A stretch of DNA of 64,000 nt from Acidobacteriota bacterium. Lineage in GTDB: Bacteria; Acidobacteriota; Terriglobia; Terriglobales; Acidobacteriaceae. Within the stretch, counting starts at the first letter, position 1. Each line of letters starts with the position of its first letter. Below are positions 40,381 to 59,503 of the stretch, in pieces. The translations under genes were made by a program, and so were the position numbers. Under the pieces are notes generated by a model that had not been told where the DNA came from, searched no databases, and was given only the letters and a program-made list of their open reading frames with translations. The DNA is taken from positions 26,075 through 90,074 of the forward strand of contig JAGWNX010000004.1 in the NCBI GenBank assembly GCA_028872955.1, written 5' to 3'.

Positions 40381-40455
40381 GGCCAGATAGCTCAGTGGTA
40401 GAGCGCGGCCCTGAAAAGGCCGGCGTCGGCGGTTCGATCCCGTCTCTGGCCACCA
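40381..40455 (+). tRNA. tRNA-Phe (GAA)
   Basis: Acceptor stem GGCCAGA/TCTGGCC, anticodon arm CGGCC-CTGAAAA-GGCCG, GGTTCGATCC T-loop, encoded CCA. Confidence 0.97.
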
Positions 40456-40553: not shown

Positions 40554-41690
40554 TCAGGCGGTCTGTTCTAACTTCTGTTGCCCAGTTTCCGCAATCTCCC
40601 TCCCCTCTGACTGCGGCTTTAGCTTGCCCCAAATTTCGCGGGATACACTGCCGGTCTTCACGATGTGCGCCCGAGCGAGGTCTGCATACCGTTCCGTCAT
40701 CTTGATGTTGGAATGCCCAAGCAGCTTCGAGAGCTCGTAAATATCACCGCCGGACATCATGTACCAGGACGCGAAGGTGTGACGCAGGTCGTGGAAACGA
40801 AAGTCTCGAATCTCTGCTCGTTCGAGCAGTTCACGGAGACTCTTGTCCGCACGCTGACGTCCACTTGTTGCGCCGGGCTCAGGGGGCAAAATCCGATCCT
40901 CTCCGAGGACAGCCGGATACCTTCGGATCTCCTCAGCGAGTTCGGGTGACAAGGGCACGTGACGTATCGTTCCTTTCTTAAGCTTTGCCCTCACCACGAT
41001 CAATCCCTCGTTGTAGAGAATGTCTCTCCACTCGAGACGAAAGATCTCCCCGCGCCGCATACCGGTTCCAACGGCAATGAGTACCAACAACCGCAGACGA
41101 AGATTCGTCTTGTTGATGTCCTTCGTGCCCTTCCGGTACATCCTCTCGTCGAGAGCGACCATTAATCTTGGAAACTCTTCTTCTGACAGGTAGCGCTTCC
41201 GAGTATCGTCGACATGTTCAACTTCCACCTGGTCGGCAGGGTTCCGGTCGATGCCGGTCACTGTCGCCCAGATGGTGGATGCCTTCCTCATCATGTGGTG
41301 CATGACGTGGAAGTGGCGCTCGGCTGTGTTTACGGCCAACTCACGAACATCCGTCAGATTGTCGTACCACTCCTGCACAGCCATTCCATCCACCTCTCGT
41401 ACGAACATTCGGCCAAGCGCGGCACGGATGCCCTCGACGATGCTCTTCTCTCGATCCGCAGACCTTTTCTTTACCCCGTATTGGGTCCAATACTTATCGA
41501 TCAGGTCGTCCATCCGGTAGTTAATTTGCTTCTTCACATCGAGGTGCCGGTTTTCAGCTCGAAGTGTGAGTTTCTTATCCTGAATTTTCTTTGCGAGTTT
41601 TGCCGAGCCGTGAACAATCACGCTCCGTGCGCGGCCTCCCTCTCTCCAACGGACCTTGTACAACTTTTCATCTAACTTTGTGACAGACAT
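40554..41690 (-). CDS. int: Tyrosine recombinase (phage-type integrase)
   Basis: TGMRRGE, RFHDLRHTFAS, LLGHSNIKMTERY; R/H-x-x-R/H/Y catalytic residues intact. Confidence 0.95.
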   Translation of the reverse strand: MSVTKLDEKLYKVRWREGGRARSVIVHGSAKLAKKIQDKKLTLRAENRHLDVKKQINYRMDDLIDKYWTQYGVKKRSADREKSIVEGIRAALGRMFVREVDGMAVQEWYDNLTDVRELAVNTAERHFHVMHHMMRKASTIWATVTGIDRNPADQVEVEHVDDTRKRYLSEEEFPRLMVALDERMYRKGTKDINKTNLRLRLLVLIAVGTGMRRGEIFRLEWRDILYNEGLIVVRAKLKKGTIRHVPLSPELAEEIRRYPAVLGEDRILPPEPGATSGRQRADKSLRELLERAEIRDFRFHDLRHTFASWYMMSGGDIYELSKLLGHSNIKMTERYADLARAHIVKTGSVSREIWGKLKPQSEGREIAETGQQKLEQTA

Positions 41691-41702: not shown

Positions 41703-41954
41703 TTAGTCAATGGGTTCGATTGTGTGTTGCTCGATATAGCGCTTAAGAGCCACTAGATCGAACCGCAACGCACGACCGGCCTTGACGTGAGAAATTGACC
41801 GCTCCTGGACCCATTTGTGGAGGGTGTCCACGCTTAGGCCCAAGTATTCGGCCGCATCCTCAACTTTCAGGAGCCGCCTTCCAATACCTTCATTTGACAC
41901 CAAGCGAGCAGAATTTTCAGGGTTTTCGGCCTTAGGCCTCCGGAGAATTGCCAT
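41703..41954 (-). CDS. xis: Excisionase-like HTH protein
   Basis: LLKVEDAAEYLGLSVDTLHKWVQERSISHVKAGRALRF; GGAGG 8 nt before ATG 41954. Confidence 0.85.
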   Translation of the reverse strand: MAILRRPKAENPENSARLVSNEGIGRRLLKVEDAAEYLGLSVDTLHKWVQERSISHVKAGRALRFDLVALKRYIEQHTIEPID

Positions 41955-42021
41955 AACCACTTCCTCCTGCCGGAGTGAGATCTAGAGGTGCTAACTCCGC
42001 GCGTTGGGTATATGTAGGGCG

Positions 42022-42115
42022 AATCCAAATCTCGGTCAAATCTCATTCGTCCCCTCGTAGGGAATGGCATGCTCGTCAGCCGAGCGAATGGTGTGATTTG
42101 ACTGAGTTTCCGATT
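42022..42115. promoter_or_regulatory. Divergent pair of element-specific 21-bp motifs
   Basis: GATTTGACCGAGATTTGGATT (minus, 42042-42022) and GATTTGACTGAGTTTCCGATT (plus, 42095-42115). Confidence 0.7.
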
Positions 42116-42152
42116 GAGACAATCCTGTGCCAGAAGTGAGGAGGTATCGGAT

Positions 42153-42407
42153 ATGAAATCAACGAGCGGTATACCGCTGGCCTTTTTCTTGACCGTCATG
42201 AACGTATGGGCAGCGTGGCAGTTTGGCGTGCCCCTATGGCAGGTCTGGGGAGCGGATCCACTGAAACGTGTAGGCCTACTGTTGATGTCAGGTATTGCCT
42301 CCGCGAGCCTGTGTCATGCCTGGGCACAGATTCTCAAGATCAGACAGCTTCAGCAACGCTTGACGGCAATATCAGCGCCTCCCACCTCGGAGGTTGCCGA
42401 TGTTTGA
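42153..42407 (+). CDS. Small membrane protein (2 TM), hypothetical
   Basis: GAGGAGG SD; overlaps the start of the next gene. Confidence 0.65.
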   Translation: MKSTSGIPLAFFLTVMNVWAAWQFGVPLWQVWGADPLKRVGLLLMSGIASASLCHAWAQILKIRQLQQRLTAISAPPTSEVADV

Positions 42408-43320
42408 GTCAATGCATGCTCTCTCCACAGGCCTAAACTCTGCAGGCTACTTCATCAACCCAGTGATGACGCAGGTCGTCTTCCTCGCGACACGACTGCA
42501 GAAGCCTCTCTTGCTGGAAGGTCCGGCCGGATCGGGCAAAACGCAGCTTGCCTTATCTGTCGCTAAAGCGGGCAGGACGCACATTGAACGATTGCAGTGC
42601 TACCAAGGCGTCACCGAGGCGCAGGCCATCGGTAGCTTCGACGCCGGGCTACAGCGTCTTTACCTCGAGTTCTCGAAGAATCAGCATTCCGACTGGCAAT
42701 CACTTCAAGCCAATCTCACTGGACGGGAGTTCTTCCGACCCGGACCGCTGATGCGCGCTCTCGAATGCGAACGGCCATGCGTCTTGCTGATCGACGAACT
42801 CGATAAGGTCGACGACGGCTTCGAGGCGATGCTGCTGGAAATCCTTTCAGCTTGGCAGCTCTCCATTCCCGAGTTCGGTACGGTACGAGCGAAGAGCATT
42901 CCTTTCGTAGTGCTCACCAGTAACGAGGAGAGGCGGCTAGGGGACCCGATCCGCAGACGGAGTCTCTATGTTCGGGTCGAGCATCCGACCCCAGAGCTCG
43001 AAGCCGACATCATCGCCAGCCGCACTCCTGAGGCGAAGGCCAGCTTCCATCGTGAAATTGCTGGCATCGCTCGATCCTTCCGAAACTACTCGCTCGAAAA
43101 GCCTCCCTCCGTCTCGGAGATGATCGATTTCGCGCGAGCTCTGCAGGTCTTAGGGACAAATCATGTCACCGAAGATTTACGCGATGTTCTTCTGCCATTC
43201 CTGGCAAAAACAGAGAAGGACCGCCGTCACCTAATGTTGCGGGAGGGCTTCAAGAGCCTGCTGAACGACGGTGCGAAATACGCGAAGGAACTTGCTTCGC
43301 CTGAGGGGGCTCTGCCATGA
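42400..43320 (+). CDS. MoxR/CoxD-type AAA+ ATPase
   Basis: LLLEGPAGSGKT, RLQCYQG, VLLIDELDK, VVLTSN, IRRR, PPSVSEMIDFARAL. Confidence 0.85.
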   Translation: MFESMHALSTGLNSAGYFINPVMTQVVFLATRLQKPLLLEGPAGSGKTQLALSVAKAGRTHIERLQCYQGVTEAQAIGSFDAGLQRLYLEFSKNQHSDWQSLQANLTGREFFRPGPLMRALECERPCVLLIDELDKVDDGFEAMLLEILSAWQLSIPEFGTVRAKSIPFVVLTSNEERRLGDPIRRRSLYVRVEHPTPELEADIIASRTPEAKASFHREIAGIARSFRNYSLEKPPSVSEMIDFARALQVLGTNHVTEDLRDVLLPFLAKTEKDRRHLMLREGFKSLLNDGAKYAKELASPEGALP

Positions 43321-43790
43321 AGCCTCTTTATGTTCTTCTGACTATCCTCTTTTCCTGCGCTGCCCAAGGGCAGACAGCTCGCGCCTTCTCCGAGCAGTGT
43401 GTGCAACGATATGCCTCCCTCTACCACATCGAGCCGGAAATAATCGCGGCCTTCATTGATGTGGAATCTGGCTGGAACCCGCGCGCCCTGTCTCCCAAAG
43501 GTGCCATGGGTCTCCTGCAACTCATGCCTGCAACAGCCACGCGCTTCGGGGCCTTTGACCCATTCAATCCAGAGCAGAACATAGCCGCCGGCACACGCTA
43601 CATCACCAGGTTAATGTGGGAGTTCCACGGCGATCTGCGGCTCGTTGCCGCAGCCTACAACGCCGGGGATAAGTGGGTGGGCAAGTGGCTCCTCGACTAT
43701 CGCAATCCCGACGTCGTTGCCTACGTCACCGCAGTCCGTAGGCGTTACATCCTCCGCCGTATGGCGGCATACCCACAGCCCAGGAGATAG
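43317..43790 (+). CDS. Lytic transglycosylase (SLT, VirB1-like)
   Basis: IDVESGWNP..SPKGAMGLLQLMP, AAAYNAG; signal peptide. Confidence 0.92.
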   Translation: MKPLYVLLTILFSCAAQGQTARAFSEQCVQRYASLYHIEPEIIAAFIDVESGWNPRALSPKGAMGLLQLMPATATRFGAFDPFNPEQNIAAGTRYITRLMWEFHGDLRLVAAAYNAGDKWVGKWLLDYRNPDVVAYVTAVRRRYILRRMAAYPQPRR

Positions 43791-43793
43791 ACC

Positions 43794-44723
43794 ATGAAAC
43801 TTCGTTGGCTCATTCCAATCGCTTTCCTGCTCCCCATACGGTCATTCGCTGCAGATGACCAGCATGGCCGTGTAACCACTCTCACTATCCAACCCGGTGC
43901 GATCACACAGCTCCATCTGCGACCAGAGTTCGAATCCGTCATTCACCTGCCGGAGGAGGTCACTTCCGTGGTCGTCGGTAGTCCAGGCTCCTTCCATGTG
44001 GAGCACAGCGAAGCTGAACCCGCCTTCGTCTACGTGAAGCCTGCGGTGCGCGCCGCGACGCAGAGCGATCTGCTTATCGCAATGAAGTCAGGCCAACACG
44101 TCATGCTGGAGCTGATCAGCGACGGCGATGGTGCCCCTGCGACGCAGGGTGTCGACTTCCTTCTGGACTACGAGCCCCGCAAGACGTTCGTCGTGTTTGC
44201 TGCGCCTCCGGAGTCGGATGGCTCGGCCTCATCATCTCGGCTGAGCGGGGTCAAAACGAATGGGAAGGCAACCTCTCTGTCTCCGATCGATCAGGCGCTC
44301 GCATTCCAGAGCAGCATCAATGCCCCGTCGTGGATGAGGTGGGATGGTCAGCAGATCCAGACGTCGCTTGGCGACATCCGGCAGTTGGGGAATCAGACAC
44401 TAATTGCATATTCGATCCTCAACGCGGGCGATCATGCGGTGGAGATTGTGGCGCCGCAGATCCAAATGGACGGTCGCAAGTCAAAGAAGAGCAAAGGCAA
44501 GAACATTCTCTCGGACCAGCTCCAGGTGCGAAGTTACCGGCTCACGGCTACGAGGCTTGAGCCCGGCGCGCGCGCCGATGGTGTTCTGCTCTTCGACCGG
44601 CCGAACTTCAAGTCGTCTATGGACAATCTCTTTCTTCAACTGGCGCAGGCGGATCAAGTCGACCGTCCGGTTCTTGTGAGGCTGCCGTTCACCCCACCCC
44701 TTGTCGCAAACAACAAGCACTAG
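43794..44723 (+). CDS. VirB9/TrbG/TraK-like secretion channel protein
   Basis: Signal peptide, ESVIHLPEEV.SVVVGSP..F.VE..VYVKP; lies directly before the VirB10-like gene. Confidence 0.6.
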   Translation: MKLRWLIPIAFLLPIRSFAADDQHGRVTTLTIQPGAITQLHLRPEFESVIHLPEEVTSVVVGSPGSFHVEHSEAEPAFVYVKPAVRAATQSDLLIAMKSGQHVMLELISDGDGAPATQGVDFLLDYEPRKTFVVFAAPPESDGSASSSRLSGVKTNGKATSLSPIDQALAFQSSINAPSWMRWDGQQIQTSLGDIRQLGNQTLIAYSILNAGDHAVEIVAPQIQMDGRKSKKSKGKNILSDQLQVRSYRLTATRLEPGARADGVLLFDRPNFKSSMDNLFLQLAQADQVDRPVLVRLPFTPPLVANNKH

Positions 44724-44737
44724 AGAGGAGCAGTTCT

Positions 44738-46003
44738 ATGAACCCGAATCAAAACGGTAATTTCCTAAATACAGAGTCCATGGAAGACCAGACTGTTCTT
44801 TTCGAACACTCAGAAACCCCGGCGAAATCGGAACCCGTCGCAGAACCACAAGAGGAGTCTCTGAAATGGGCAACGCGAGCCGATGCGCTGAAGACCGCGG
44901 CAACAGGTCGCAAACCTATTCTGCTGCTCGTCGGAAGCCTCGCAGCAGCAATTGTGTTGTTTGCGGTCACGAGCTTCGTCGGAAAGGTGCCCCACAGGAA
45001 AGTGCCGGCGCCTTCACAGAACAGCACTGAGAGTGCCGCACCCGCTAAACCCAAAGGGAGTGTCACACCTCTGATGGATACAGTGCGAAATCCCACCCAG
45101 AGCAACACCGCTGGACAGCTCACACCAGCCGATATCAACCGAACCAAGGCCAGCACAGGAACCCGGCCCACACCGACGTCCTCGCAGACGTCGTCGCGCC
45201 CGGCTTCCTCAACCGACACAACGCTGGCCTCGGTACCGCCCTTCGAATCCACGCAACAGCACTGGGAAGAACCGAGACCGTATGGCGACACGCAGGCGCC
45301 CCCACATCCTGCTGCTGCGGGGACACAGCAGAACCTGTTGAAAGAAGCTTCGCTTGTGTTCGTGAAGAAGTTGGAGCAGAACACCGCCAATAATGCGTCC
45401 GGGGGAACGAACAGCAATGACGTTACCCCAGAGCTGAACCTGACACCAGGGACGCGGGTTCAAGCGAGGCTTGAGACGCAGGCTTCAAGCGCTGTGACGG
45501 CACCGGTCGTCGCCGTCGTCGAATACACCTACTCTCTAGGCGATCGCATTGTGATCCCAGCGGGAGCCCGGGTCTACGGCCAGCTTCAGCAGGCCGATCG
45601 AAGTGGCGCGGTGAGTATCAAATTCAACGAGATCGAACTGTTGGACGGCAACCGGGAAAAGATCGAAGCGATCGGGACAAGCCTTGAACTGGGGCCGATC
45701 AAAGGGACGGTATCAGGGAAGAACACGGGGAAGAACTTCCTCGTGCGCACCGCCTCCGGAATTGGATCGGTCGCTGCGATGCTAGTGGGAAACAACACCA
45801 GCACTGCCTTCTCTCAGGATGACCTCATTCGTGAACGCATTGCGCAAAACATGGGCAATGCGGGCGATACGGAGATCATGAACATGGCCGTCACCAATCA
45901 CATCGTCGTTTCGTTGCCGGCGGACACGCCGATATACATCGTCTTCACTAAGCGTGAGGCGGCCTCGACACCCTCTCATCCTTCAACAAGCGCAAAACCA
46001 TAG
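44738..46003 (+). CDS. VirB10/TrbI/TraB-like protein
   Basis: Single TM helix, P/T/S-rich linker, PGTRVQARLET..PVVAVVE..IPAGARVYG C-terminal domain. Confidence 0.75.
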   Translation: MNPNQNGNFLNTESMEDQTVLFEHSETPAKSEPVAEPQEESLKWATRADALKTAATGRKPILLLVGSLAAAIVLFAVTSFVGKVPHRKVPAPSQNSTESAAPAKPKGSVTPLMDTVRNPTQSNTAGQLTPADINRTKASTGTRPTPTSSQTSSRPASSTDTTLASVPPFESTQQHWEEPRPYGDTQAPPHPAAAGTQQNLLKEASLVFVKKLEQNTANNASGGTNSNDVTPELNLTPGTRVQARLETQASSAVTAPVVAVVEYTYSLGDRIVIPAGARVYGQLQQADRSGAVSIKFNEIELLDGNREKIEAIGTSLELGPIKGTVSGKNTGKNFLVRTASGIGSVAAMLVGNNTSTAFSQDDLIRERIAQNMGNAGDTEIMNMAVTNHIVVSLPADTPIYIVFTKREAASTPSHPSTSAKP

Positions 46004-46316
46004 TGGTAGATGTTCAAGGGTCAGCATGAGCCTCAGCTTCGGCTGGGGCTTCACTTTGCCTAATTGTCCGAATAGTTGAAGCACCGTGCACGTTGCCCAA
46101 ATCAAGCGCTTCTTGATCATCGTGCAGAATGACGAATTGTTCCCCGGTATATTTCAATGCGCAGAATGACGGATTGTCGGGCTCGGTTCAGATTACATCG
46201 CCGAGGATGCCCCATCTATCGGGTATGCGGTGCTCAACCAGCCACACCTAAAAGATTGCTGGACCAGAATAGATACAGGACTGCGCTGTGAGCCCCTAAC
46301 GGCTCGACAAGGATAT

Positions 46317-46664
46317 TCAAGCCAGGTACTTCGAGACCTTATAAGCCACTGCCCCGATCACTTCCTTCCACTTCCAATCGATCTTTCCTTCGACTTTGAG
46401 GCGTCTGATTCCGCTTTCCTTCCATGCCTCTTCAATCGTCGGCGAGTATACGGAGAGTTCGAAGATCGTCATCGACCTCTGTGCACGCTCGGGCAGAGTA
46501 CGAATGTATTCTGACTCAAGTTCCTGCTTCAGCTCTGTCGCGCCGCTACGAATCGCAGCCTCTGAAATCGGGTCCGGGGGCAGTTGTTCAAGCAAGCGCA
46601 GAATCTCAGCACACTGCTTACCGATCAGTCGGAGCCTTTGGGACGCTTCTTCCTTCTTCATCGA
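46317..46664 (-). CDS. Hypothetical helical protein (115 aa)
   Basis: Open frame with protein-like composition in a lower-GC stretch. Confidence 0.55.
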   Translation of the reverse strand, partial: SMKKEEASQRLRLIGKQCAEILRLLEQLPPDPISEAAIRSGATELKQELESEYIRTLPERAQRSMTIFELSVYSPTIEEAWKESGIRRLKVEGKIDWKWKEVIGAVAYKVSKYLA

Positions 46665-46836
46665 ATAGTCAATCCCTATCAAGCCAGCTTCTTAAGTTTA
46701 CGGAACAAGAACGTTCGCCGCGGACTTCTACTACCGGATCGAAGCAGGACTTGCGACGGCAACCGAAACCAATCATCATGCACCGTGACTCCATTTTCCC
46801 GGTGGTGGGCCAATCTCCGCAATCATCGACCGTTCG

Positions 46837-47043
46837 TCAAGGTCTGTCATTGTGCACCGTGGCTAATTGTCCCGCCGCGTATGGCAATGTGCGTACTGCC
46901 GTATCTACCTCATCGATGAATCGATCTGCGCAATGACCAATTAGCCGTCGTTTTGTGTCACGCTGCATTGCGCCCGATTGTCCCTCCGCATCAAGCAATA
47001 TGCACTGCGCACCGTTTGTTGTCCGCATGTATCCAATCCGCAC
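46837..47043 (-). CDS. Possible small hypothetical protein (68 aa)
   Basis: GTG start with upstream AAAGGG; no recognisable motif. Confidence 0.3.
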   Translation of the reverse strand: MRIGYMRTTNGAQCILLDAEGQSGAMQRDTKRRLIGHCADRFIDEVDTAVRTLPYAAGQLATVHNDRP

Positions 47044-47215
47044 TATGACCCTTTCTAGAGCGCCGCTAGGGCATTTTCCAATGTTTTCCTAAATTTATAG
47101 GCGATTCACGTTCTCCGAATCATAGATCACCAGGACATTTGCTCCCCTTTTCCCATTTCTGCGGACCAGATTGGCCCCTCTCCATACTCTGAACGACGAT
47201 TTCCAAGTTCTCTTC

Positions 47216-47236
47216 GATTTGACCGAGTTTGCGTTT
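47216..47236 (+). promoter_or_regulatory. Third copy of the element-specific 21-bp motif, upstream of the pilin/virB4 operon
   Basis: GATTTGACCGAGTTTGCGTTT, starting 79 nt before ATG 47295. Confidence 0.7.
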
Positions 47237-47294
47237 GGCTCGATGTTTCTCTCGACACGGATGCCCAGAGCAGCCGAGTCCAGGAGAGATAGCT

Positions 47295-47723
47295 ATGACA
47301 ACCGCACTCACCTTTTGGCGGCCTGCTCGCAAATCCGCCAACTCCGTCTCCACCATTCAGCGCCCAAACAGCACCAGTTGGCCGCATCTCTTCCTGAAGA
47401 TCGCGCTCATGTTCATGCTCGTCGGCGCTTTCCTGCCCTTTGCCGCACACGCACAGAACCTCGGAACCTCTCCTCAGTTCGGGCAGGCGGTCCAGGGCCA
47501 GCAGGCCACAACCGTCGAGGGGACAGTTCTTAACATCGTGAACTGGGGCTGCAACGTGATTGCTCCGGTGATTGCGATTGCCTGCCTTGGCGTCGCCGGC
47601 TGGCACTTCAAGTCGGGTCGCGGCTACATGGGCTGGGGAGTGACAGGGGTCGCTTTGATGGTCATCTCTGGGCTGGGACGTATGGCCGAGGGCTTCATCA
47701 CCCAGGCCGGGTCGATTCAATAG
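47295..47723 (+). CDS. VirB2/TrbC-like pilin
   Basis: Long signal peptide ending AHA-Q, then a hydrophobic hairpin VNWGCNVIAP...ALMVISG; first gene of the virB-like operon. Confidence 0.65.
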   Translation: MTTALTFWRPARKSANSVSTIQRPNSTSWPHLFLKIALMFMLVGAFLPFAAHAQNLGTSPQFGQAVQGQQATTVEGTVLNIVNWGCNVIAPVIAIACLGVAGWHFKSGRGYMGWGVTGVALMVISGLGRMAEGFITQAGSIQ

Positions 47724-47734
47724 GGGCGACTGCG

Positions 47735-48397
47735 ATGCCTGTGCCGCAATTCCTTTCCGACCTGCTTCAACTGCTGTTTGACCTCGCGGTCCCAGCTGCG
47801 TTCTGCACGCTGGCGGCCGCGGGCGTCAGCCTGAGAGCAGAGGGCGGAACGAACTTTCACATTGACGGGAAGTTTGGGAAGTGGATTCTTTGGACTGTCG
47901 TTCTGTTGACGATTCCACAGATCCTTTCCTGGGTTGCGGCACAAGGCATCACCGTTCCATCCGCAAGTGGCTCGGTCGGCACGAGCTGGCTGGCGAGCAT
48001 CGAATCGCTCTTCAAGAACTTCGTGAACGACATTGTTGTCGCGAAGCTGGTTCCATTACTCGCTGCGTACTTCGTGCTCAAAGCGACACTCGACGGAGCT
48101 GCCGGAGAGAGTCCCCTCGGATCGATCGTTGCTGCTCTATTCCTGATGTCCATCAGTGCCACGATGCAGCTTTTCCAAGGTTGGAACTCGGGAGGAGAAT
48201 ATGCGACGACCGACATGCTTGGCTCGCTGTGGAACTACATCGCCGACAAGATCATGCCCTCTGCGGCCGGCCTTGCGTGTATTGGGGCGGTCATCAACTT
48301 CGTCCGTCATCGTCCCTGGACACGTTTGATCTTCGCTGCAATCGCATTCCTGAGCGTGACAGGACTTGTAAAGCTGTTTCAGGCCATGGCCGCTTAG
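47735..48397 (+). CDS. Membrane protein with three pilin-like modules
   Basis: Three hydrophobic hairpin units; the last (LWNYIADKIMP...AFLSVTG) clearly resembles the pilin. Confidence 0.7.
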   Translation: MPVPQFLSDLLQLLFDLAVPAAFCTLAAAGVSLRAEGGTNFHIDGKFGKWILWTVVLLTIPQILSWVAAQGITVPSASGSVGTSWLASIESLFKNFVNDIVVAKLVPLLAAYFVLKATLDGAAGESPLGSIVAALFLMSISATMQLFQGWNSGGEYATTDMLGSLWNYIADKIMPSAAGLACIGAVINFVRHRPWTRLIFAAIAFLSVTGLVKLFQAMAA

Positions 48398-48411
48398 AAA
48401 AGGAGAACCCG

Positions 48412-48867
48412 ATGAGTCTCGATGGAGCTATTACAAATCTCGCATCCTGGGGCGGCAACGTCATCATGCCAACGCTGGCGGGCGGTTTCTTTTCCTTCGC
48501 CGTGTACCGCTACAGCAAAGGCGGACCGTTCGAACAGCACCTCTACGGTGGATTCGCATCTCTCATGTGCTCCGGAATCCTCCGTGCTCTCGAGGGCTTT
48601 GTCCAGCACGCCGGACCAACCAGTGCGGACGGCTACTGGACGGCGCTGATGAGTCTCGTCAACTACACAGCCAATGTCATTCTGCCGGTTTTTGCGCTTA
48701 CGCAGCTCGCGGCAATGGCCCTTCATATGGGGGGAGTGCTCGACCAGATCTATCCGGGCTCGACATGGATTCGTAAGTTCGTGGCAGCGATCGGGGCCTT
48801 GATGGTCTCTGGCATCGTGCGTCTGGCCGAGTCGATGGTGACACAAGCGCACGGGATTGGAGGATGA
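48412..48867 (+). CDS. Membrane protein with two pilin-like modules
   Basis: AAGGAG SD; ASWGGNVIMP...SLMCSG and VNYTANVILP...ALMVSG units. Confidence 0.75.
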   Translation: MSLDGAITNLASWGGNVIMPTLAGGFFSFAVYRYSKGGPFEQHLYGGFASLMCSGILRALEGFVQHAGPTSADGYWTALMSLVNYTANVILPVFALTQLAAMALHMGGVLDQIYPGSTWIRKFVAAIGALMVSGIVRLAESMVTQAHGIGG

Positions 48868-48869
48868 CC

Positions 48870-49214
48870 ATGAGTCTCGATCTCACACCTGTTCATCGCA
48901 ACCTGCACACCAAAGTGACATTCCTGGGCCTCGAGTTCGAGGACCTGATCTTCGTGCTCGCCCTGGCAGCACTAATGAATCTGCTGGCTCATTTCGTCGG
49001 CGGAGAGAGCCACATCCTGGGCATGCCGCTCAACGTCTTCATGGAATTCGTCGTGCCTTTTCTGGCCGTGCCGTTCCTCATGCTCTTCAAGTACGGCAAG
49101 CCGAGGGGCTACCTCCTCGATCTTGTGCGCTCTGTCTTTGCCCCCAAGGCCTGGTGTGCACTTGAGCGAGATTCCGAACTGGTGCAGCCTTATCTCGCAG
49201 AAGAGGAGGAATGA
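48870..49214 (+). CDS. VirB3/TraL-like membrane protein
   Basis: TPVHRNL..TFLGLE, two TM helices, KYGKPRGYL; upstream of virB4. Confidence 0.6.
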   Translation: MSLDLTPVHRNLHTKVTFLGLEFEDLIFVLALAALMNLLAHFVGGESHILGMPLNVFMEFVVPFLAVPFLMLFKYGKPRGYLLDLVRSVFAPKAWCALERDSELVQPYLAEEEE

Positions 49215-49217
49215 GCG

Positions 49218-49415
49218 ATGCGAGCACACGTCACAGCACAGCCAGATGGAAGCATTCTCCTCCGCATGGATGTCGAGGCGGCACGGGCCACGTTTGCCAG
49301 TGTTGTCTTTGCCTCCCGATATAACGACGGCGTACGCGGTCTGGAGGAGATCGCGAAGCACGCCCTAGAAGACATACTGGAATCCACCGATCGGAGACAT
49401 GCGACATGCCGATGA
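49218..49415 (+). CDS. Small hypothetical protein (65 aa)
   Basis: GAGGAGG SD; fills the gap and overlaps the virB4 start. Confidence 0.55.
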   Translation: MRAHVTAQPDGSILLRMDVEAARATFASVVFASRYNDGVRGLEEIAKHALEDILESTDRRHATCR

Positions 49416-52054
49416 CCTATGCCGAACACGACAAGAAGATGAAAGCTCCCGCTATGTGCGAACTGTTGCCCCTCCGCGATCTGCCTGAGGGAGACAACGT
49501 GATCGTTCGCACGAACGGCTCATTCGTTGCGGGGTACGAGTTGAAGGGGGTGCTCTCGTACTTCGCGACGGATGGGGAGAGGAACCATGCGAAATCCTCG
49601 CTGGAGGCGCTGTTCCGCGGCATCCCCGACGTCAGCATGCGCGTACAGTTCCGCTACGAGATCGCGGAGCACCTCAACGGACTGATTGACGAGTACGTGC
49701 ACGCACAGCGAACCGATCAGGCGGAGATGATGGCGCTCGACGCCCACCGTGTCTGCAGATGGAGGGAGAAAGAGGCGGAGGGTGCGTACTTCCAGAATCG
49801 TCTCCACGTGTATTTCGTCTGGGACCCTCGGATCCATGCCAAGCTCTACCATTCGGTGGAACAGAATCGAAAGCTCGGCGGTTTCACTTTCAGCCAAAAG
49901 AAGGCCATCCAGAGAACACGCAAGGAACACGAAACGTATCTTGCCGAATTCGAGTCGATCCTTCGCGGTATTGAGAACTCCCTCGAGACCGAAGAAATCG
50001 GCCCACGCCGGCTGCTGACGCAGGAACTCTTCGAAGAGTTACAGTCGGCGCAGCATCCACGACGTCGCGATCGGAGGCCCTATATCCCAGGCGAGGAGAT
50101 GCTCTCGTATCGCAGCGCGCGGGATCAGGCCACCCATGCCAGCATCCTGAACGAAACCGAGAACTACCTCAATATCGACGGGTATCTGTACTCGGTTGTG
50201 AGCCTCAAGGAGCTGCCGGATGCGACCTTTCCTGGCATGTTGCAGAAGTTTTCGACACTAGGCTTTCCGTTGGTTATCAGCGGCCAGGTGGAGATTCCAG
50301 ACCAAGTGAAGATTCTGAAGGCGTATAAGAAGCGCCTCCAGAAGATGACCGCAGCGCAGAAGGACGCTAACGGAAACTTCAAGTCGAACCCGGAGGCCGA
50401 AGTTGCTCAGGCACAGCTCATTCAGGTGCAGCGCGACATCATCTCTTCCTCTTTGAAGACCGCGAAGTTGAGCCTCTCGGTAGTAGTGCGTACTTCCCAT
50501 GAAGCCGTCAGCTTCCGCGACCTAGAGTCGGCAGAGCGTGAGATCTCCAACCGAACACAAGAAGTCCTGAACGCTTTCACCCATATGAACGGGGCGCGTG
50601 GTGTCGTCGAAACCATTGCGAAGCGGCGCATCTTCATCGGGACCCTTCCAGGGATGGGTGAGACGGACAAGCGGGAGCAGGACATGCTTACCCCAAATGC
50701 TGCGGATCTGGTTCCGGTGGAGATGCCGTGGACAGGCACGCGAAAGAGCCCGCTGATGCTGTTCGAAACGCCGTACCGGCAGCTGATCCCGTACTCGATG
50801 TTCGATCCCGATCTGTCGGACGCCAATGGCCTCTTGATGGCAAAAACGGGTGGTGGCAAGACTCTGGCGGCCCAACAGATGCTCTTGATGGCTGCGCGCA
50901 ACAATGCCCGCGTCTCCATTCTCGAAAGCGGCGATTCCTATCGGCCCCTGGTTGAGCTGATGGGTGGCGAGATGGTCCAGATGTCGCTCGACAGCACACA
51001 GACGATCAACCCGTGGGATCTGCTGCATGGTGAGACGAAGCCATCGAACGACCAATTGGCATTCCTCAAGAATCTGACCCGCCACATGCTTGGGGAGAAC
51101 ACGCCACCTGACCTGGATATCGATCTGTTGGATAGCGTGCTGCTGGAGGCAATCACCTCCACGTACAAACGTTGCAGGGCCAAGAGCTCCAATCCAATAC
51201 CCCTCTACTCGGATCTCGCTGCGGAACTAGCCCACTGGCAGGACCGTGACAAGAATCAGAAGATCAATGAAATGGCACGCCTCGCGGCAATGAAGCTGCG
51301 CGCATGGGTCGATGACGGCCCCTATGCCAAGCTCTTCGATCGTCCTACGACCGTACGGCTCGACAGCCCGTGGCTCTATTTCAATGTGGAGAAGCTGAAG
51401 GATGATTCCCGGCTCGAACGTGCCATGAGCCTGAAGGTCGCTCATGCGGCGACTCATCGCGGCTCGGGGAGCGACGGCCTCCCGAACATCACGCTGCTCG
51501 ATGAGTGCTGGGCCATGCTCGAGTCGCCGATTCTTGCCTCCGTTGTCGTTCAGCTCTTCCGGACAGCACGCAAACGCTACGGCAGCGTATGGGGAATCAG
51601 TCAGACGCCGGAGGACTTCGTCGGAACGAAGGATAAGCCCAATCCCTTCGGCGCAGGCATCGTCAAGAATGCTTCCACCAAGATCATTGGCAAACAGCCC
51701 GGCGACATGACGACACACCGCGAGTACATGAACCTCAACGAAACGGCCATCAACCAAATCAAAGCCTTCGCGCAGCCGAAGAAGGGGCACAGGGCTGAGT
51801 TCCTGATCGCAATCGGTGAAAAGGCCGAGTCAACGCATGTCATCCGGATCGCGCCGACACCGGTGGACTACTGGATCACGACGACTTACCCGCGGGAACG
51901 CGTGTATCGGAAGTGGTGGCTGAATGCCCACACAGACGTTCCTCTTTTGTCTGCCTATGAGGGCCTTGCAAGCCTCTATCCACGCGGCCTGGCCGATCTT
52001 GCGCCTCTTCCTGAGGAGATGTCCGGAGAGGTTCTGGAGGTGAAAACCCTATGA
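49406..52054 (+). CDS. virB4: VirB4 family conjugal transfer ATPase
   Basis: Walker A AKTGGGKT, INPWD, Walker B LLDECW, RTARKRYG..ISQ; 882 aa. Confidence 0.88.
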   Translation: MPMTYAEHDKKMKAPAMCELLPLRDLPEGDNVIVRTNGSFVAGYELKGVLSYFATDGERNHAKSSLEALFRGIPDVSMRVQFRYEIAEHLNGLIDEYVHAQRTDQAEMMALDAHRVCRWREKEAEGAYFQNRLHVYFVWDPRIHAKLYHSVEQNRKLGGFTFSQKKAIQRTRKEHETYLAEFESILRGIENSLETEEIGPRRLLTQELFEELQSAQHPRRRDRRPYIPGEEMLSYRSARDQATHASILNETENYLNIDGYLYSVVSLKELPDATFPGMLQKFSTLGFPLVISGQVEIPDQVKILKAYKKRLQKMTAAQKDANGNFKSNPEAEVAQAQLIQVQRDIISSSLKTAKLSLSVVVRTSHEAVSFRDLESAEREISNRTQEVLNAFTHMNGARGVVETIAKRRIFIGTLPGMGETDKREQDMLTPNAADLVPVEMPWTGTRKSPLMLFETPYRQLIPYSMFDPDLSDANGLLMAKTGGGKTLAAQQMLLMAARNNARVSILESGDSYRPLVELMGGEMVQMSLDSTQTINPWDLLHGETKPSNDQLAFLKNLTRHMLGENTPPDLDIDLLDSVLLEAITSTYKRCRAKSSNPIPLYSDLAAELAHWQDRDKNQKINEMARLAAMKLRAWVDDGPYAKLFDRPTTVRLDSPWLYFNVEKLKDDSRLERAMSLKVAHAATHRGSGSDGLPNITLLDECWAMLESPILASVVVQLFRTARKRYGSVWGISQTPEDFVGTKDKPNPFGAGIVKNASTKIIGKQPGDMTTHREYMNLNETAINQIKAFAQPKKGHRAEFLIAIGEKAESTHVIRIAPTPVDYWITTTYPRERVYRKWWLNAHTDVPLLSAYEGLASLYPRGLADLAPLPEEMSGEVLEVKTL

Positions 52055-52878
52055 AGACCACTCGGATTCCTCAGCTCATCAGCTCACTCGGAAATCGCTC
52101 GTTCAAGACGCTCCTGCCGAAGACCAGGCCGAAGTGCATCGCCGTTATGGCCGGGCTCGTCGGGATTGCGCTCGCCTTGCCTACGCCGGCACATGCCGAT
52201 ATTCTAGGCGTCTTTGATTCGATCTTTTCGACCATTCAGAGTGACATGGGTGCATCCCTGAAGGCCATCAACCAGATGACGCAGGAGATCCAGCAGCTGT
52301 ATCAGGAAACCGTGTGGCCGCTCGCGATGGTGAATCAGGCGCGTGGGTTTGTCTCTAATTCCATCACCAGCTACCGCAGCTACATGACGCAGGTCTTTCA
52401 GCTTTCTTCCCCAAGTGCGACATTGGCAAACCCACAGCAACTGGAGACGATTCTGCATAGCCGGACCAGTACTCAGATTCCGGCACTCCAAACCAGTTTC
52501 ACGACGAACTATGGAAGTGTCCCCGCAGTCAATGTCGCCTCGCCACAGGATCGCGTGATGATCGACATCGACGATGCGCTTGGGCAGGAAAACCTTAAGA
52601 CCACACTCATCGCCGACCAAGGACAGGACCTGGTACTTGCCACGGCGAATCAGATGGAGAATCAGGTTGCGGTCAGTGCACCTGGCTCCACTCCTTTCCT
52701 TACGGCACAGGCACAAGTTGCCAATCTTCGCTGCCAGGCTTTCATGCAGAAGATGCTCGCTGCGGAACTGCGGCAAGAGGCGGGGCGCATCGCGCACGAC
52801 AACGTCCTCATCAAGCGGCGTGCCACTTCAGCCGGCAACCTAAACCAATTTGTGTCGGGGTCCCTGACTCACCAGTAA
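52051..52878 (+). CDS. Secreted VirB5/TrbJ-like protein 1
   Basis: Signal ending AHA-D, helical and Q-rich, positioned between virB4 and virB6-like genes. Confidence 0.55.
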   Translation: MKTTRIPQLISSLGNRSFKTLLPKTRPKCIAVMAGLVGIALALPTPAHADILGVFDSIFSTIQSDMGASLKAINQMTQEIQQLYQETVWPLAMVNQARGFVSNSITSYRSYMTQVFQLSSPSATLANPQQLETILHSRTSTQIPALQTSFTTNYGSVPAVNVASPQDRVMIDIDDALGQENLKTTLIADQGQDLVLATANQMENQVAVSAPGSTPFLTAQAQVANLRCQAFMQKMLAAELRQEAGRIAHDNVLIKRRATSAGNLNQFVSGSLTHQ

Positions 52879-52889
52879 AGGAGGCAATA

Positions 52890-53792
52890 ATGCCAGACCT
52901 GAAGCGTATTACCGACAAAATCCGGCGCCCACTCTTCTGGAAGCGTACGTCTCCACCGGAAACAAAAGCCATCTCCAGCGGAGCGACGTCACAGTCTTCC
53001 GACCGGCGTCGCAAGTGGTACGCGCCTACGTTCCTCAAGACAGCGCCCCTTCTGTTAGTGACGGCTCTGTTTGCGCCGAAGGCAGCACACGGGCAGTTCG
53101 GAATCGATCTCGCAGCAATCCTCGCAGGGTTATCCAAGGTGGAGACCCTCATGAACAAGTATGTTGCGGCTCCGCTGAAGACGATCAATCAGGCGCAGCA
53201 GAGTATCAGCAGCTACGAACAAGAGGTCGTCTATCCGATTACCGCGATCAATCAGGCAAAAAGCTCCGTAACTCAGTTTGAGAACCAGTTCAGCCAGATC
53301 AGCACGATGTTTCGTGTCAATGTATCGAGCGCCACGTTGCCGCAGTCGCAGAGTCTCGAGACGATGCTGCTTTCCCGCAATACCAGCAATGTTGCCTCGG
53401 TCTCGCCGCAGTTCCAGAACGTCTACGGTGTCGTCATGGCTCAGAACGCGGCGTCCCCCGAAGTCCGCAACATGACGGACATGACCGATGCACAGGCGCA
53501 GGACGCTATGAAGCGTGCCATCGCCATCGACGCCTTGGCGGATGCCGAACTCGCGCAAGCCGACAAGATGGGGCAACAGATCGCAACTGCGGCACCGGGG
53601 AGCGCGCCCATCCTCGAAGCAGAGGCCGACGTGTGGCTTGTGCGAGCGAATGCCTATACCCAGGCCGCACTCGCTGAGTTGATGCGTACGCGCGGCATCG
53701 ACCTTGCGAACCAAAGCAAGCGTGCGAAGCTCGGTGCTTCCGACAACACCAGCAATAGCACCTTGATCAATGGATCTCTCACCCAGAGGTAG
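52890..53792 (+). CDS. Secreted VirB5/TrbJ-like protein 2 (paralog of the previous gene)
   Basis: Signal ending AHG-Q; shares ATL..Q.LET.L.SR and APGS.P.L.A.A blocks with 52051. Confidence 0.55.
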   Translation: MPDLKRITDKIRRPLFWKRTSPPETKAISSGATSQSSDRRRKWYAPTFLKTAPLLLVTALFAPKAAHGQFGIDLAAILAGLSKVETLMNKYVAAPLKTINQAQQSISSYEQEVVYPITAINQAKSSVTQFENQFSQISTMFRVNVSSATLPQSQSLETMLLSRNTSNVASVSPQFQNVYGVVMAQNAASPEVRNMTDMTDAQAQDAMKRAIAIDALADAELAQADKMGQQIATAAPGSAPILEAEADVWLVRANAYTQAALAELMRTRGIDLANQSKRAKLGASDNTSNSTLINGSLTQR

Positions 53793-53798
53793 TCGGCC

Positions 53799-55577: not shown

Positions 55578-55604
55578 ACCTCGCATGAGGAAAGGAGAAC
55601 GAAT

Positions 55605-56306
55605 ATGTTCAGCACAGAAGCGGACGTGAAAGCCTCGGGGCCTCGCCTGAAGTACTACGAGATGGATGGGGCGCGGCTCGCCAATGCCAATCGAGCGTGG
55701 TTGCTTGCATTCCTCATGGCGATCCTTGCAGTTGTGGCCCTCGGGTTTGCAATCATGGTTTGCCTCAAACCCCCAACGGTGATTCGCATCGGAGCCAACG
55801 GAGATGCAGCGGTGCTCGGGCAGTCATCGCCTTCAGTCTCAAGTTCCGCCGGAGATCCCTATCTCACCGAGGTCTTCGTCAAACGCTTCCTCTCCGAATA
55901 CCTGAACTACAGTCCCTCGAATGTAGATGACCACTGGGCAACAGCACTGAACAAGATGACTCGCAACCTTCGTGCCATGACGATCAAAGCGATGTCTGAT
56001 GGCAACGTTCGCGGCAAGATCGACGACGACCAAATCCAGTCGGTATTCCATCTTCGCGAAATGGAGCCCGTCACAGGAGAACCCTTGACCTTCCTGGTCT
56101 ATGGCGTGAAAGACGTGCACCATGTCACGAACGGCGGCGAAGTAACGGACCACTTCGTGAACGAGTACAGGATTCGCCTCGTGGCCGACAGGCGAAGTGA
56201 CGCCAACCCAGACGGGCTTTGGATCGCAGAGTATAGCGAGCGGCCGATTGATGGCGAACGCCGCAATGTCATTCTCTCGGCTTCCGACCAAAACAACAAC
56301 GAGTGA
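55605..56306 (+). CDS. VirB8/TrbF-like protein
   Basis: NRAW + TM + PTVIRIGANG, FVKRFLSEYLNYSP, DGLWIAEY. Confidence 0.7.
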   Translation: MFSTEADVKASGPRLKYYEMDGARLANANRAWLLAFLMAILAVVALGFAIMVCLKPPTVIRIGANGDAAVLGQSSPSVSSSAGDPYLTEVFVKRFLSEYLNYSPSNVDDHWATALNKMTRNLRAMTIKAMSDGNVRGKIDDDQIQSVFHLREMEPVTGEPLTFLVYGVKDVHHVTNGGEVTDHFVNEYRIRLVADRRSDANPDGLWIAEYSERPIDGERRNVILSASDQNNNE

Positions 56307-56319
56307 GGAGGGTATATCG

Positions 56320-56619
56320 ATGGAGGCAACGCAAGCAAAGATAACCGATGCTCCACCGGGGCAACTGCCCGCGAATCCCGCTCAAAAGAAAGGGCGGAAG
56401 GGTCGCAACAGCGAAGAGACAGCTCGGTTCTTTCTCGCCAAAGAAGGTTCCTCTCCCCAAAAACCTGAATTGGGAGAAGAGGCGCAAACCGAAAGCGACG
56501 CCCTCATCAAAGCATTCCAGCAGAAGACGGGCGTGATCTACGTAGTGACAGCATTTCGGGCTGAAGCAGAAATACAAGGAGGCAGCCCTGTATTGGTGAA
56601 ACGGCCGCTCACGAAGTAG
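56320..56619 (+). CDS. Hypothetical protein (99 aa)
   Basis: GAGGAGG SD; basic N-terminal segment KKGRKGR. Confidence 0.7.
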   Translation: MEATQAKITDAPPGQLPANPAQKKGRKGRNSEETARFFLAKEGSSPQKPELGEEAQTESDALIKAFQQKTGVIYVVTAFRAEAEIQGGSPVLVKRPLTK

Positions 56620-56715
56620 CGGCAACGGTCAGCAAACGGCATTCAAAGAGGAGACACACCTTATTCAGGCCACTGTCCTCTCTTGAACCTTATCGCCTGG
56701 GCGATGAGGAATTCC

Positions 56716-59420: not shown

Positions 59421-59427
59421 CCCTGCG

Positions 59428-59459
59428 GAGGAGGTGCGGACATTCGTCTGTGCCTCCTC
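59428..59459 (+). other. 14-bp stem-loop directly after the polymerase-like gene
   Basis: GAGGAGGTGCGGAC-attc-GTCTGTGCCTCCTC; no U tract. Confidence 0.7.
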
Positions 59460-59503
59460 TCGCTGGAGATTCTGTCGCCTGGAACAGGCGCACGGAGGAG
59501 ACT

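What the first reader, a model, noticed from the sequence alone, without database searches (positions are those of the whole stretch)
42022..47236. A 21-bp motif precedes three element operons: candidate element-specific promoter or operator
Seen: GATTTGACCGAGATTTGGATT (minus, 42042-42022, facing xis-int), GATTTGACTGAGTTTCCGATT (42095-42115, facing the ATPase-SLT-virB9-virB10 operon) and GATTTGACCGAGTTTGCGTTT (47216-47236, facing the pilin-virB4 operon). The consensus is GATTTGACYGAGWTTNSGWTT. Each copy points toward its operon and starts 58-88 nt before the start codon. The core TTGACY resembles a -35 box, but the hexamers 17 nt downstream (TACATA, AATCCT, GATGTT) are poor -10 matches. I saw no copy in the host region by eye. 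Inference: these are promoters read by the element polymerase, or activator sites analogous to SetCD/AcaCD boxes that co-induce excision and transfer.
Basis: partly seen in the sequence, partly recalled or inferred. Interest (0 to 1): 0.75.

Follow-up and report, generated by a model that had tools for sequence, protein, structure and literature searches.

The report
Shared promoter box of acidobacterial ICE
A mobile DNA element in a soil acidobacterium starts its excision, mating-channel, pilus and DNA-primase operons with the same short DNA box; the box has the layout of an ordinary bacterial promoter read by the host's RNA polymerase, with extra conserved bases that probably bind an unidentified regulator and switch all these operons together.

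Summary
The three 21-bp copies lie exactly where stated (3 found, 0.02 expected by chance). In the 3.48-Mb genome the box occurs only on the tRNA-Phe-integrated conjugative element (ICE). I found two further copies: a full one before the element's primase gene, 3.9 kb past the window's end, and a degenerate one before virB4 (49160).

In 42 non-identical copies from related elements, the core ATTTGACCGAGTTT contains the host's own -35 (TTGACC). Exactly 17 bp downstream lies a yAnnnT hexamer, with A in 42/42 and T in 31/42. This is the signature of a sigma-70-family promoter. Host tRNA promoters have the same layout without the extra bases.

The box is confined to mobile elements of Terriglobia. 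It heads the same operons in dozens of ICEs, and also int/xis genes on small islands in genomes that lack both the ICE and its polymerase-like gene. More divergent ICE lineages carry variant boxes.

Best reading: host-polymerase promoters carrying a lineage-specific regulator site that defines an excision-plus-transfer regulon. The "read by the element's polymerase" idea is poorly supported. The SetCD/AcaCD-like logic fits, but no regulator was found. No RNA data could be used.

The parts
40381..40455 (+). tRNA-Phe, the integration site (attL side) of the ICE. Its last 48 nt are repeated at contig C161:4311-4358 (attR).
   Evidence: GC falls from 64% to 56% at this point
40554..41690 (-). tyrosine integrase, second gene of the xis-int unit driven from box copy 1
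   Evidence: Pfam Phage_integrase, 3.4e-32
41703..41960 (-). excisionase-type HTH_17 gene (xis), first gene behind box copy 1
   Evidence: Pfam HTH_17, 6.2e-13
42022..42042 (-). box copy 1, GATTTGACCGAGATTTGGATT; -35 TTGACC at 42039-42034
42011..42016 (-). -10-like hexamer TACATA, 17 bp after the -35 of copy 1
   Evidence: alignment
42095..42115 (+). box copy 2, GATTTGACTGAGTTTCCGATT; -35 TTGACT at 42098-42103. It lies back to back with copy 1, 52 bp apart.
42121..42126 (+). -10-like hexamer AATCCT, 17 bp after the -35 of copy 2
42153..46003 (+). operon 1: small membrane ORF, AAA+ ATPase, SLT transglycosylase, VirB9-like, VirB10-like
47216..47236 (+). box copy 3, GATTTGACCGAGTTTGCGTTT; -35 TTGACC at 47219-47224
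47242..47247 (+). -10-like hexamer GATGTT, 17 bp after the -35 of copy 3 (orthologues have CATTCT)
47295..49214 (+). pilin-module genes and a 116-aa membrane ORF, driven from copy 3
49160..49190 (+). degenerate fifth copy, ACTTGAGCGAGATT then 11 nt then CAGCCT, inside the 3' end of the preceding ORF, ahead of the small ORF at 49218 and virB4
   Evidence: orthologous copies in G099, G368 and G335b
49218..63774 (+). long transfer operon: small ORF, VirB4, two paralogous ORFs, VirB6, VirB8, the 854-aa polymerase-like gene, CagX-like, T4CP, and two unknown ORFs
56856..59420 (+). It has a DFDYD motif and no box in its 550-bp upstream region.

Best explanation
The boxes are the promoters of the ICE's backbone operons: xis-int, the ATPase-SLT-VirB9-VirB10 operon, the pilin operon, an internal virB4 promoter, and the primase operon just past the window. 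Their layout is that of a sigma-70-family promoter read by the host RNA polymerase holoenzyme. It consists of a consensus -35 (TTGACC/T), a rigid 17-bp spacer, and a -10 hexamer yAnnnT that keeps the two bases sigma flips out (A-11, T-7). The -10 ranges from near-consensus (TACAAC, TACATA) to weak (CATGCT, CATTCT, AATCCT, GATGTT). The geometry, its conservation, and its restriction to mobile elements are shown. The -35 is embedded in an invariant, asymmetric 14-mer (ATT-TTGACC-GAGTTT), followed by semi-conserved spacer positions (GRA at 16-18, Y at 20, G at 22). Host promoters lack these extra bases, and they change with ICE lineage. I infer they are the docking site of an unidentified transcription factor specific to this element family, which ties excision, mating-pore, pilus and replication genes into one regulon. 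I lean toward a helper-encoded activator, following SetCD/AcaCD logic, for two reasons. The same box heads int/xis genes on small islands that share no regulator with the ICE and sit in ICE-free genomes. And the T4SS promoters have weak -10s. A repressor operator overlapping -35 is the close alternative.
For: (1) The 42 non-identical copies were selected only on the 14-bp core. In them, position 27 (hexamer position 2, 17 bp after TTGACC) is A in 42/42, position 31 is T in 31/42, position 26 is C/T in 38/42 and position 22 is G in 35/42. Flanking positions are random. These sites fall into at least 12 non-orthologous promoter classes. (2) Host tRNA promoters in the same genome read TTGaCc, 17 bp, TAnAcT, and TTGACC itself occurs there, but none has the ATT/GAGTTT extension. 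(3) The box occurs nowhere else in the genome. (4) In related elements it heads the same operons in the right orientation, 51-128 nt before the start codon, even where proteins are only 45-80% identical. (5) In the genome-collection scan, 51 of 80 listed loci are Acidobacteriota. Of their 53 copies, 41 lie just upstream of ICE gene homologues; none of the 29 hits in other phyla do. (6) Lineage-specific variants exist. A divergent ICE clade has GTTTGACAGAAA, 13 nt, then TA at its primase and pilin promoters, still TTGACA-17-TAnnnT. G062 uses TGGTATAG-type extended -10 boxes. (7) Boxed int/HTH_17 islands occur in genomes with neither polymerase nor VirB4. (8) The HTH_17 genes behind the boxes belong to at least 5 unrelated subfamilies, so they are targets rather than the common reader.
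Against: So 'promoter' and 'host holoenzyme' both rest on sequence geometry. No candidate regulator was identified: Pfam finds no sigma, FlhDC-like or other DNA-binding domain among the conserved unknown ICE ORFs. The spacer never varies from 17 bp, which is more rigid than in ordinary sigma-70 promoter sets. The primase promoters end in C, not T (TACAAC). Box and polymerase-like gene are statistically associated across genomes (odds ratio 7, p = 2e-6), as expected if both simply mark the same ICE lineage, but also compatible with a functional link. A perfect -35 is unusual for an activator-dependent promoter.
Confidence: 0.55

Rival explanations
1. Polymerase-specific promoters. The ICE's own 854-aa two-barrel polymerase-like protein recognises the box and transcribes the operons, following T7 or P23-45 logic. 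The boxed islands would be satellites that exploit it.
For: Related phage enzymes use short dedicated promoter motifs (PMC10770324). Box and gene are associated across 301 genomes (16 with both, odds ratio 7). The box variant changes with polymerase/ICE clade. The box is invariant and asymmetric, as expected for a single reader.
Against: The box contains the host's -35 consensus and, at exactly 17 bp, a hexamer whose conserved bases are precisely A-11 and T-7. That would have to be coincidence for a sigma-less enzyme. The conserved block would lie at -38 to -24 relative to a sigma-70-type start, too far upstream for known single-subunit polymerase promoters. 30 of 46 box-positive genomes lack the gene, and the 14 checked also lack VirB4. 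The polymerase-like gene lies inside an operon that starts at boxed promoters and has no separate box-free host-type promoter that I could recognise. Sequence search finds no solved polymerase relative.
Confidence: 0.1
2. Plain strong host promoters with no dedicated factor. The extended conservation would reflect only promoter-strength selection and copying of one promoter cassette within and between elements.
For: All elements of a sigma-70 promoter are present, and no regulator gene was found. Boxed islands persist in ICE-free genomes.
Against: All 14 core positions, plus spacer positions 17, 18, 20 and 22, stay conserved between elements whose proteins are only 45-60% identical, while neighbouring bases are random. 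Sigma region 4 reads about 6 bp. Host promoters with TTGACC lack the extension. Other ICE lineages in the same host family use a different extension.
Confidence: 0.15
3. Loading site for a Q/AlpA-type antiterminator. The conserved bases just downstream of -35 would bind an element protein that boards the host polymerase and carries it through the long operons.
For: In Pseudomonas aeruginosa the AlpA-binding element lies in the spacer between -35 and -10, at -25 to -20 (PMC9371919). Here the extra conservation also extends into the spacer. The operons are long, about 15 kb from virB4 onward.
Against: No Q- or AlpA-like protein was detected. The small HTH_17 proteins are of unrelated subfamilies. 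No conserved -10-like pause element or leader terminator was seen downstream of the boxes.
Confidence: 0.07
4. Not a promoter at all, but recombination, partition or oriT-type protein-binding sites.
For: The boxes lie next to int/xis genes in several elements.
Against: Every copy is intergenic or at an operon head, oriented toward the genes, 51-128 nt from a start codon with a Shine-Dalgarno sequence. The only att-proximal near-match (40482-40495) is not conserved in relatives.
Confidence: 0.03

Closest known systems
SetCD boxes of SXT/R391 ICEs and AcaCD boxes of IncA/C plasmids
   Same: One short box heads many backbone operons, including xis/int and transfer genes. The same box also occurs on small integrative islands that lack the regulator and depend on the helper element.
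   Different: No FlhD/FlhC-family activator gene was found here. The box here contains a consensus -35 and extends into the spacer rather than upstream. Dependence on an activator is untested.
Phage lambda CII-dependent promoters pRE, pI and paQ (TTGC-N6-TTGC around -35; established knowledge)
   Same: A shared motif at the -35 region co-regulates several promoters of a mobile element, including the integrase promoter, and works through host sigma-70 holoenzyme.
   Different: CII sites are direct repeats flanking a poor -35. Here the motif is asymmetric, the -35 itself is consensus, and no CII-like gene is seen.
Phage T4 middle promoters (MotA box centred near -30 plus a sigma-70 -10; established knowledge)
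   Same: An element-specific box in the -35/-30 region is combined with a host-type -10 at fixed distance. The box is asymmetric, as for a monomeric reader.
   Different: T4 middle promoters lack a -35 and need AsiA and MotA. Here the -35 is intact and no such proteins are recognisable.
Global operators of conjugative plasmids (KorA/KorB/TrbA of IncP, repressor network of R388; established knowledge)
   Same: Repeated sites at most backbone promoters give one control circuit for transfer and maintenance genes, and the sites overlap core promoter elements.
   Different: Those operators are palindromic and their repressor genes are known. This box is not palindromic and no repressor was identified.
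Dedicated promoters of phage single-subunit or two-barrel RNA polymerases (T7; P23-45 gp64/gp96, PMC10770324)
   Same: A short invariant motif precedes many transcription units of a mobile element that encodes a polymerase-like protein.
   Different: Those motifs abut the start site and carry no -35/-10 geometry. Here the geometry is sigma-70-like and the box also occurs without the polymerase gene.

Membership tests
sigma-70-family (housekeeping-type) promoter | -35 hexamer close to TTGACA | tested here: met
   TTGACC or TTGACT in all window copies. G5, A6 and C7 are invariant in 42 sites, though these positions were part of the selection. The variant clade has TTGACA.
sigma-70-family (housekeeping-type) promoter | 16-18 bp spacer to a -10 hexamer that keeps A at position 2 and T at position 6 | tested here: met
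   Spacer is 17 bp in 42/42, A2 in 42/42 and T6 in 31/42; none of these was selected for. The window copies are TACATA, AATCCT and GATGTT, and the copy beyond the window is TAGAAC: all have A2, two have T6.
sigma-70-family (housekeeping-type) promoter | same layout as the host's own promoters | tested here: met
   Eighteen tRNA upstream regions fit TTGnCn, 16-18 bp (17 in most), TAnAnT. The tRNA-Phe promoter reads TTGGCG-17-TATACT.
sigma-70-family (housekeeping-type) promoter | transcription start 6-8 nt after the -10, made by host holoenzyme | not testable with these tools
Only indirect evidence: the conserved pilin 5'UTR block begins about 7 nt after the hexamer.
polymerase-specific promoter of an element-encoded single-subunit RNA polymerase | motif occurs only together with the polymerase gene | tested here: not met
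   In 301 genomes: both 16, motif only 30, polymerase only 18. About 8-12 of the motif-only or mixed hits are a coding-sequence look-alike. Fourteen motif-only genomes also lack VirB4, with a working positive control.
polymerase-specific promoter of an element-encoded single-subunit RNA polymerase | conserved block abuts the start site and has no -35/-10 geometry | tested here: not met
   The conserved parts are a 14-mer plus a hexamer 11 nt further on, matching -35/-10 geometry. The start site itself is unmapped.
polymerase-specific promoter of an element-encoded single-subunit RNA polymerase | the element encodes an active RNA polymerase | tested here: inconclusive
A DFDYD motif is present, but sequence search finds no solved relative.
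SetCD/AcaCD-type master-activator regulon | FlhD/FlhC-family activator genes on the element | tested here: not met
   No such Pfam hit in any ICE ORF of the window, of contigs C134 and C161, or of the G671 relative. Part of this ICE is unassembled.
SetCD/AcaCD-type master-activator regulon | one box upstream of xis/int and several transfer operons | tested here: met
SetCD/AcaCD-type master-activator regulon | same box on non-conjugative islands that lack the regulator | tested here: met
   Islands in G123, G279, G209 and G111 consist of int, HTH_17 and a 230-aa nucleotidyltransferase-like gene, each behind a box. They share no protein with the ICE, in genomes with no VirB4 or polymerase.
SetCD/AcaCD-type master-activator regulon | transcription from the box depends on the activator | not testable with these tools
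   needs reporter or RNA experiments
global repressor operators of conjugative plasmids (KorA/KorB type) | palindromic operator and a cognate repressor gene on the element | tested here: not met
   The consensus is asymmetric. The only HTH genes found are HTH_17 genes of unrelated subfamilies and one HTH-M78 gene that is not conserved in relatives.

The most novel reading that the evidence does not exclude
The box is the dedicated promoter of the ICE's own two-barrel RNA polymerase, acting alone or together with a host sigma factor. The element would then run a private, T7-like transcription programme for excision and conjugation. The small boxed int/xis islands in ICE-free genomes would be satellites waiting to hijack that polymerase.
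Probability: 0.08. Interest if true: 0.85.

Novelty: new member of a known kind. Interest (0 to 1): 0.45.

Why it matters
Acidobacteria are abundant soil bacteria with almost no genetics, and their conjugative elements are uncharacterised. This box gives a sequence-level definition of one ICE family's regulon: xis-int, two T4SS operons, an internal virB4 promoter and the primase operon. It is also a simple marker for finding such ICEs and their companion islands in genomes and metagenomes. It predicts start sites and yields specific mutations to test. It also bears on what the element's polymerase-like protein does. If host polymerase reads the boxes, as the geometry indicates, that protein probably has another role, and experiments on it should look elsewhere, for example at the transferred strand. 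Finally, a strong, portable, possibly inducible promoter for Acidobacteriaceae would be a useful tool.

Tried and rejected
(2) Xis as the common reader: jackhmmer with the window's Xis finds none of the small HTH genes behind the boxes elsewhere. They are HTH_17 proteins of at least 5 unrelated subfamilies with different recognition helices, so I rejected this. (3) A cryptic sigma or regulator on the ICE: Pfam at E up to 5 on the unknown ORFs, and on the distal part of the 90%-identical relative G671, gave nothing DNA-binding. The HTH-M78 gene at the right end is not conserved in the fetched relatives. (4) A shared protein between islands and ICE: blastp of island ORFs against G671 ICE ORFs found none of note. 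(5) A direct-repeat or palindrome reading of the box (GATTTG-N5-GATTTG, CCGA-N3-TCGG) holds in single copies only, not in the 42-site profile. (6) A 12/14 copy at attL (40482-40495) that could fire across the joined ends after excision is not conserved in relatives at the same tRNA-Phe site, so it is probably chance. (7) An RBS-sequestering helix in the pilin leader would imply a start upstream of the -10, but the covariation term was unfavourable, with only 2 weak double changes in 6 sequences. (8) Phage contigs gave 5 hits, all low-GC or unrelated and none near ICE-like genes, so this was uninformative. (9) The G289 copy at bamA and copies inside the polymerase gene of G456/G489 lack promoter context. 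I excluded them as chance before computing the profile. (10) About 11 family-survey hits share ATTTGACYGAGATYGTSGAYGCSACCA, which reads LTEIVDAT in frame; I took this to be a conserved host coding sequence, not a box.

Full report
**Observation.** Even with three mismatches allowed the window holds no other match, and shuffles predict 0.02. The window is part of contig C134 of a 3.48-Mb, 207-contig genome. The whole genome holds only these three copies at <=3 mismatches. A weight-matrix scan separates the ICE copies (35-40 bits) from the best other site (15.7 bits).

I found two more copies. A full fourth copy lies at C134:93931, 3.9 kb beyond the window's end and 61 nt before an AEP-type primase gene. 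A degenerate fifth copy lies at 49160-49173 (ACTTGAGCGAGATT, 11 nt, CAGCCT), ahead of a small ORF and virB4. It is conserved at the same place in three relatives.

**Setting.** The element begins at tRNA-Phe (40381-40455), where GC falls from 64% to 56%. A 48-nt repeat of the tRNA's 3' end on contig C161 marks the other end. The gene order is as follows:
- int and an HTH_17 excisionase on the minus strand;
- on the plus strand, a small membrane ORF, AAA+ ATPase, SLT, VirB9-like and VirB10-like;
- a variable 1.2-kb stretch;
- pilin-module genes;
- a long run from virB4 to the coupling protein, which includes the 854-aa gene at 56856-59420.

Past the window come Replic_Relax, a PAPS-reductase-like gene and the primase. 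On C161 there is an HTH-M78 peptidase and a thymidine-hypermodification gene pair.

I saw its DFDYD motif but found no solved relative by sequence, and I did not repeat the fold work.

**What the box is.** Related elements supply the decisive evidence. The polymerase-like gene has homologues in the same family, and the box clusters around them. I fetched the loci, mapped gene order by tblastn and aligned every copy on the 14-bp core.

I selected 42 non-identical copies on the core alone. Four copies that sit inside coding sequences or at a host gene were set aside beforehand. In these 42, the base 17 bp after TTGACC plus one (position 27) is A in 42 of 42. The base four further on is T in 31 of 42. 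The base before the A is C/T in 38. Position 22 is G in 35. Everything upstream of the box and downstream of the hexamer is random.

The sites belong to at least a dozen non-orthologous promoter classes, so shared ancestry alone does not explain this. A consensus -35, a 17-bp spacer, and a hexamer whose two conserved bases are exactly those that sigma flips out (A-11 and T-7) are the signature of a sigma-70-family promoter.

The host's own tRNA promoters read TTGaCc, 17 bp, TAnAcT, several with TTGACC itself, but without the surrounding ATT and GAGTTT. Each ICE promoter class keeps its own -10: primase TACAAC, ATPase operon CATGCT, pilin CATTCT. That suggests graded intrinsic strengths.

**Distribution.**
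Of 80 listed loci, 51 are Acidobacteriota: Acidobacteriaceae, Granulicella, Edaphobacter, Terracidiphilus, Tunturiibacter, Ca. Angelobacter and one Bryobacteraceae MAG. The other 29 are scattered single hits, roughly the number chance predicts.
- Of the 53 acidobacterial copies, 41 lie correctly oriented just upstream of homologues of ICE genes: 21 primase, 14 ATPase operon, 3 pilin, 3 int/HTH. None of the 29 others does.
- The remaining copies head other mobile-element genes: a TSCPD-domain gene, an HxlR-like regulator, an AlpA-like gene and an HTH-integrase.
- In 301 genomes of the family, a stricter pattern hits 46 genomes (78 sites), while its reversed control hits twice.

**Who reads it.** Against it:
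- The sigma-70 geometry (above).
- The conserved block would lie at about -38 to -24 relative to the expected start. That is far from where known single-subunit polymerase promoters sit.
- The cross-tabulation of box against polymerase gene gives both 16, box only 30, gene only 18, neither 237. The odds ratio of 7 is what one expects if both mark the same ICE lineage.
- About 8-12 of the box-only or mixed hits are a coding-sequence look-alike, and some are decayed ICE remnants (G517, G464). But G123, G279, G209 and G111 carry small islands of int, HTH_17 and a 230-aa nucleotidyltransferase-like gene, each gene behind its own box. Fourteen such genomes have neither the polymerase gene nor this ICE's VirB4, with a working positive control.
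- The polymerase-like gene has no box of its own and lies inside the operon that starts at boxed promoters.

For it: the association, the co-variation of box variant with ICE clade, and the precedent of motif-specific phage two-barrel polymerases (PMC10770324). I put this reading at about 10%.

**Why host polymerase alone is not enough.** Sigma region 4 reads about six base pairs. Here 14 contiguous positions and four spacer positions stay fixed between elements whose proteins are only 45-60% identical. Host promoters lack the extension. Other ICE lineages in the same host family have a different extension. One clade has GTTTGACAGAAA with TTGACA-17-TAACTT/TATCTA at its primase and pilin promoters in five genomes, with no control hits. 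G062 has TGGTATAG-type extended -10 boxes. So the extension tracks the element, not the host.

The small HTH_17 genes that always sit behind a box belong to at least five unrelated subfamilies. They are therefore targets, not the common reader. Islands and ICE share no other protein. I found no sigma-like or other DNA-binding candidate among the conserved unknown ORFs, and part of this ICE is unassembled.

The pattern of a helper element plus regulator-less islands carrying the same box is the pattern of SetCD/AcaCD regulons. That is why I lean toward a helper-encoded activator. A repressor operator overlapping -35, or a Q/AlpA-type loading site in the spacer (PMC9371919), remain possible.

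**Shown versus inferred.**
- Shown: the copies, their statistical significance, their restriction to mobile elements of Terriglobia, their conservation at orthologous operon heads, the -35/17/-10 geometry with invariant A, the lineage-specific variants, and their presence in ICE-free genomes.
- Inferred: that they fire as promoters, that host holoenzyme reads them, that an extra factor binds the extension, and whether that factor activates or represses.

The A-11/T-7 profile and the ICE-free islands shift that question toward the host enzyme, but only RNA 5'-end data or in vitro transcription can settle it.

**Verdict.** This is a real regulon-defining promoter box of an uncharacterised acidobacterial ICE family. 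It is a new member of a known kind, namely element-wide promoter/operator boxes. It is useful for annotation and for designing experiments. It would be surprising only if the minority polymerase reading turned out to be true.

Noticed in passing
contig C161:1064-3008 (minus strand; right end of the ICE, outside the window): An aGPT-Pplase3/amino-acid:DNA-transferase gene (PF18746, 3.6e-98) sits next to a thymidylate-synthase homologue. This thymidine-hypermodification pair is usually found in phages; here it is on a conjugative element next to attR.
   Followed up: partly
contig C161:67-1074 (+), outside the window: An HTH plus Peptidase_M78 (ImmA/IrrE-like, HEAGH motif) gene lies at the ICE's right end and could be an induction switch. 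It is not conserved in the relatives I fetched.
   Followed up: partly
window 47254-47290 (+): The pilin-operon leader is almost invariant across six elements (GACACGGATGCC..GAGCAGCCGAGTCCAGGAGAGA). It can form a hairpin that starts about where a sigma-70-type +1 would be. There is no covariation to test it.
   Followed up: partly
L051, L052 (G123); L058, L059 (G279); L049 (G209); L041:13560-14312 (G099 ICE): Small islands are built of integrase, an HTH_17 gene and a ~230-aa wHTH plus nucleotidyltransferase-like gene, each behind its own box. The same 230-aa gene also sits at the left end of the G099 ICE. These may be mobilisable islands or exchangeable integration modules.
   Followed up: partly
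window 46004-47215: A variable stretch lies between virB10 and the pilin promoter, with a 121-aa minus-strand ORF (46317-46682) of no known family. In the 90%-identical relative G671 the same position holds a 5.5-kb insertion, so it is a cargo hot spot.
   Followed up: no
window 42046-42051 and 42083-42088: CATTCG and CGAATG form an inverted repeat just upstream of the two back-to-back boxes. I saw it only in this element, not in the G368 pair.
   Followed up: no
G335 contigs C31 and C22 (L044, L045, L048): One genome carries two elements of this family. One is complete, with the polymerase-like gene. The other has a truncated virB4 and no polymerase hit, but its boxes are intact.
   Followed up: no
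L109 (MAG labelled Actinomycetota) compared with L142 and L146 (Acidobacteriaceae): Nearly the same boxed TSCPD-domain gene occurs in a contig binned as Actinomycetota. This is either mis-binning or transfer across phyla.
   Followed up: no
family survey, e.g. G565:C7:211988, G412:C2:1184267, G401:C9:406109: About 11 genomes share ATTTGACYGAGATYGTSGAYGCSACCA, which reads LTEIVDAT in frame. It is probably a conserved host coding sequence that mimics the box core, and is a false-positive source for motif scans.
   Followed up: no
L195, L196 (low-GC viral contigs of 142-169 kb): The core ATTTGACCGAGTTT recurs three times within 100 bp, inside a longer repeat (CCATACCAAATTTGACMGAGT) of a large low-GC phage contig. 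It is unrelated to the acidobacterial box.
   Followed up: no
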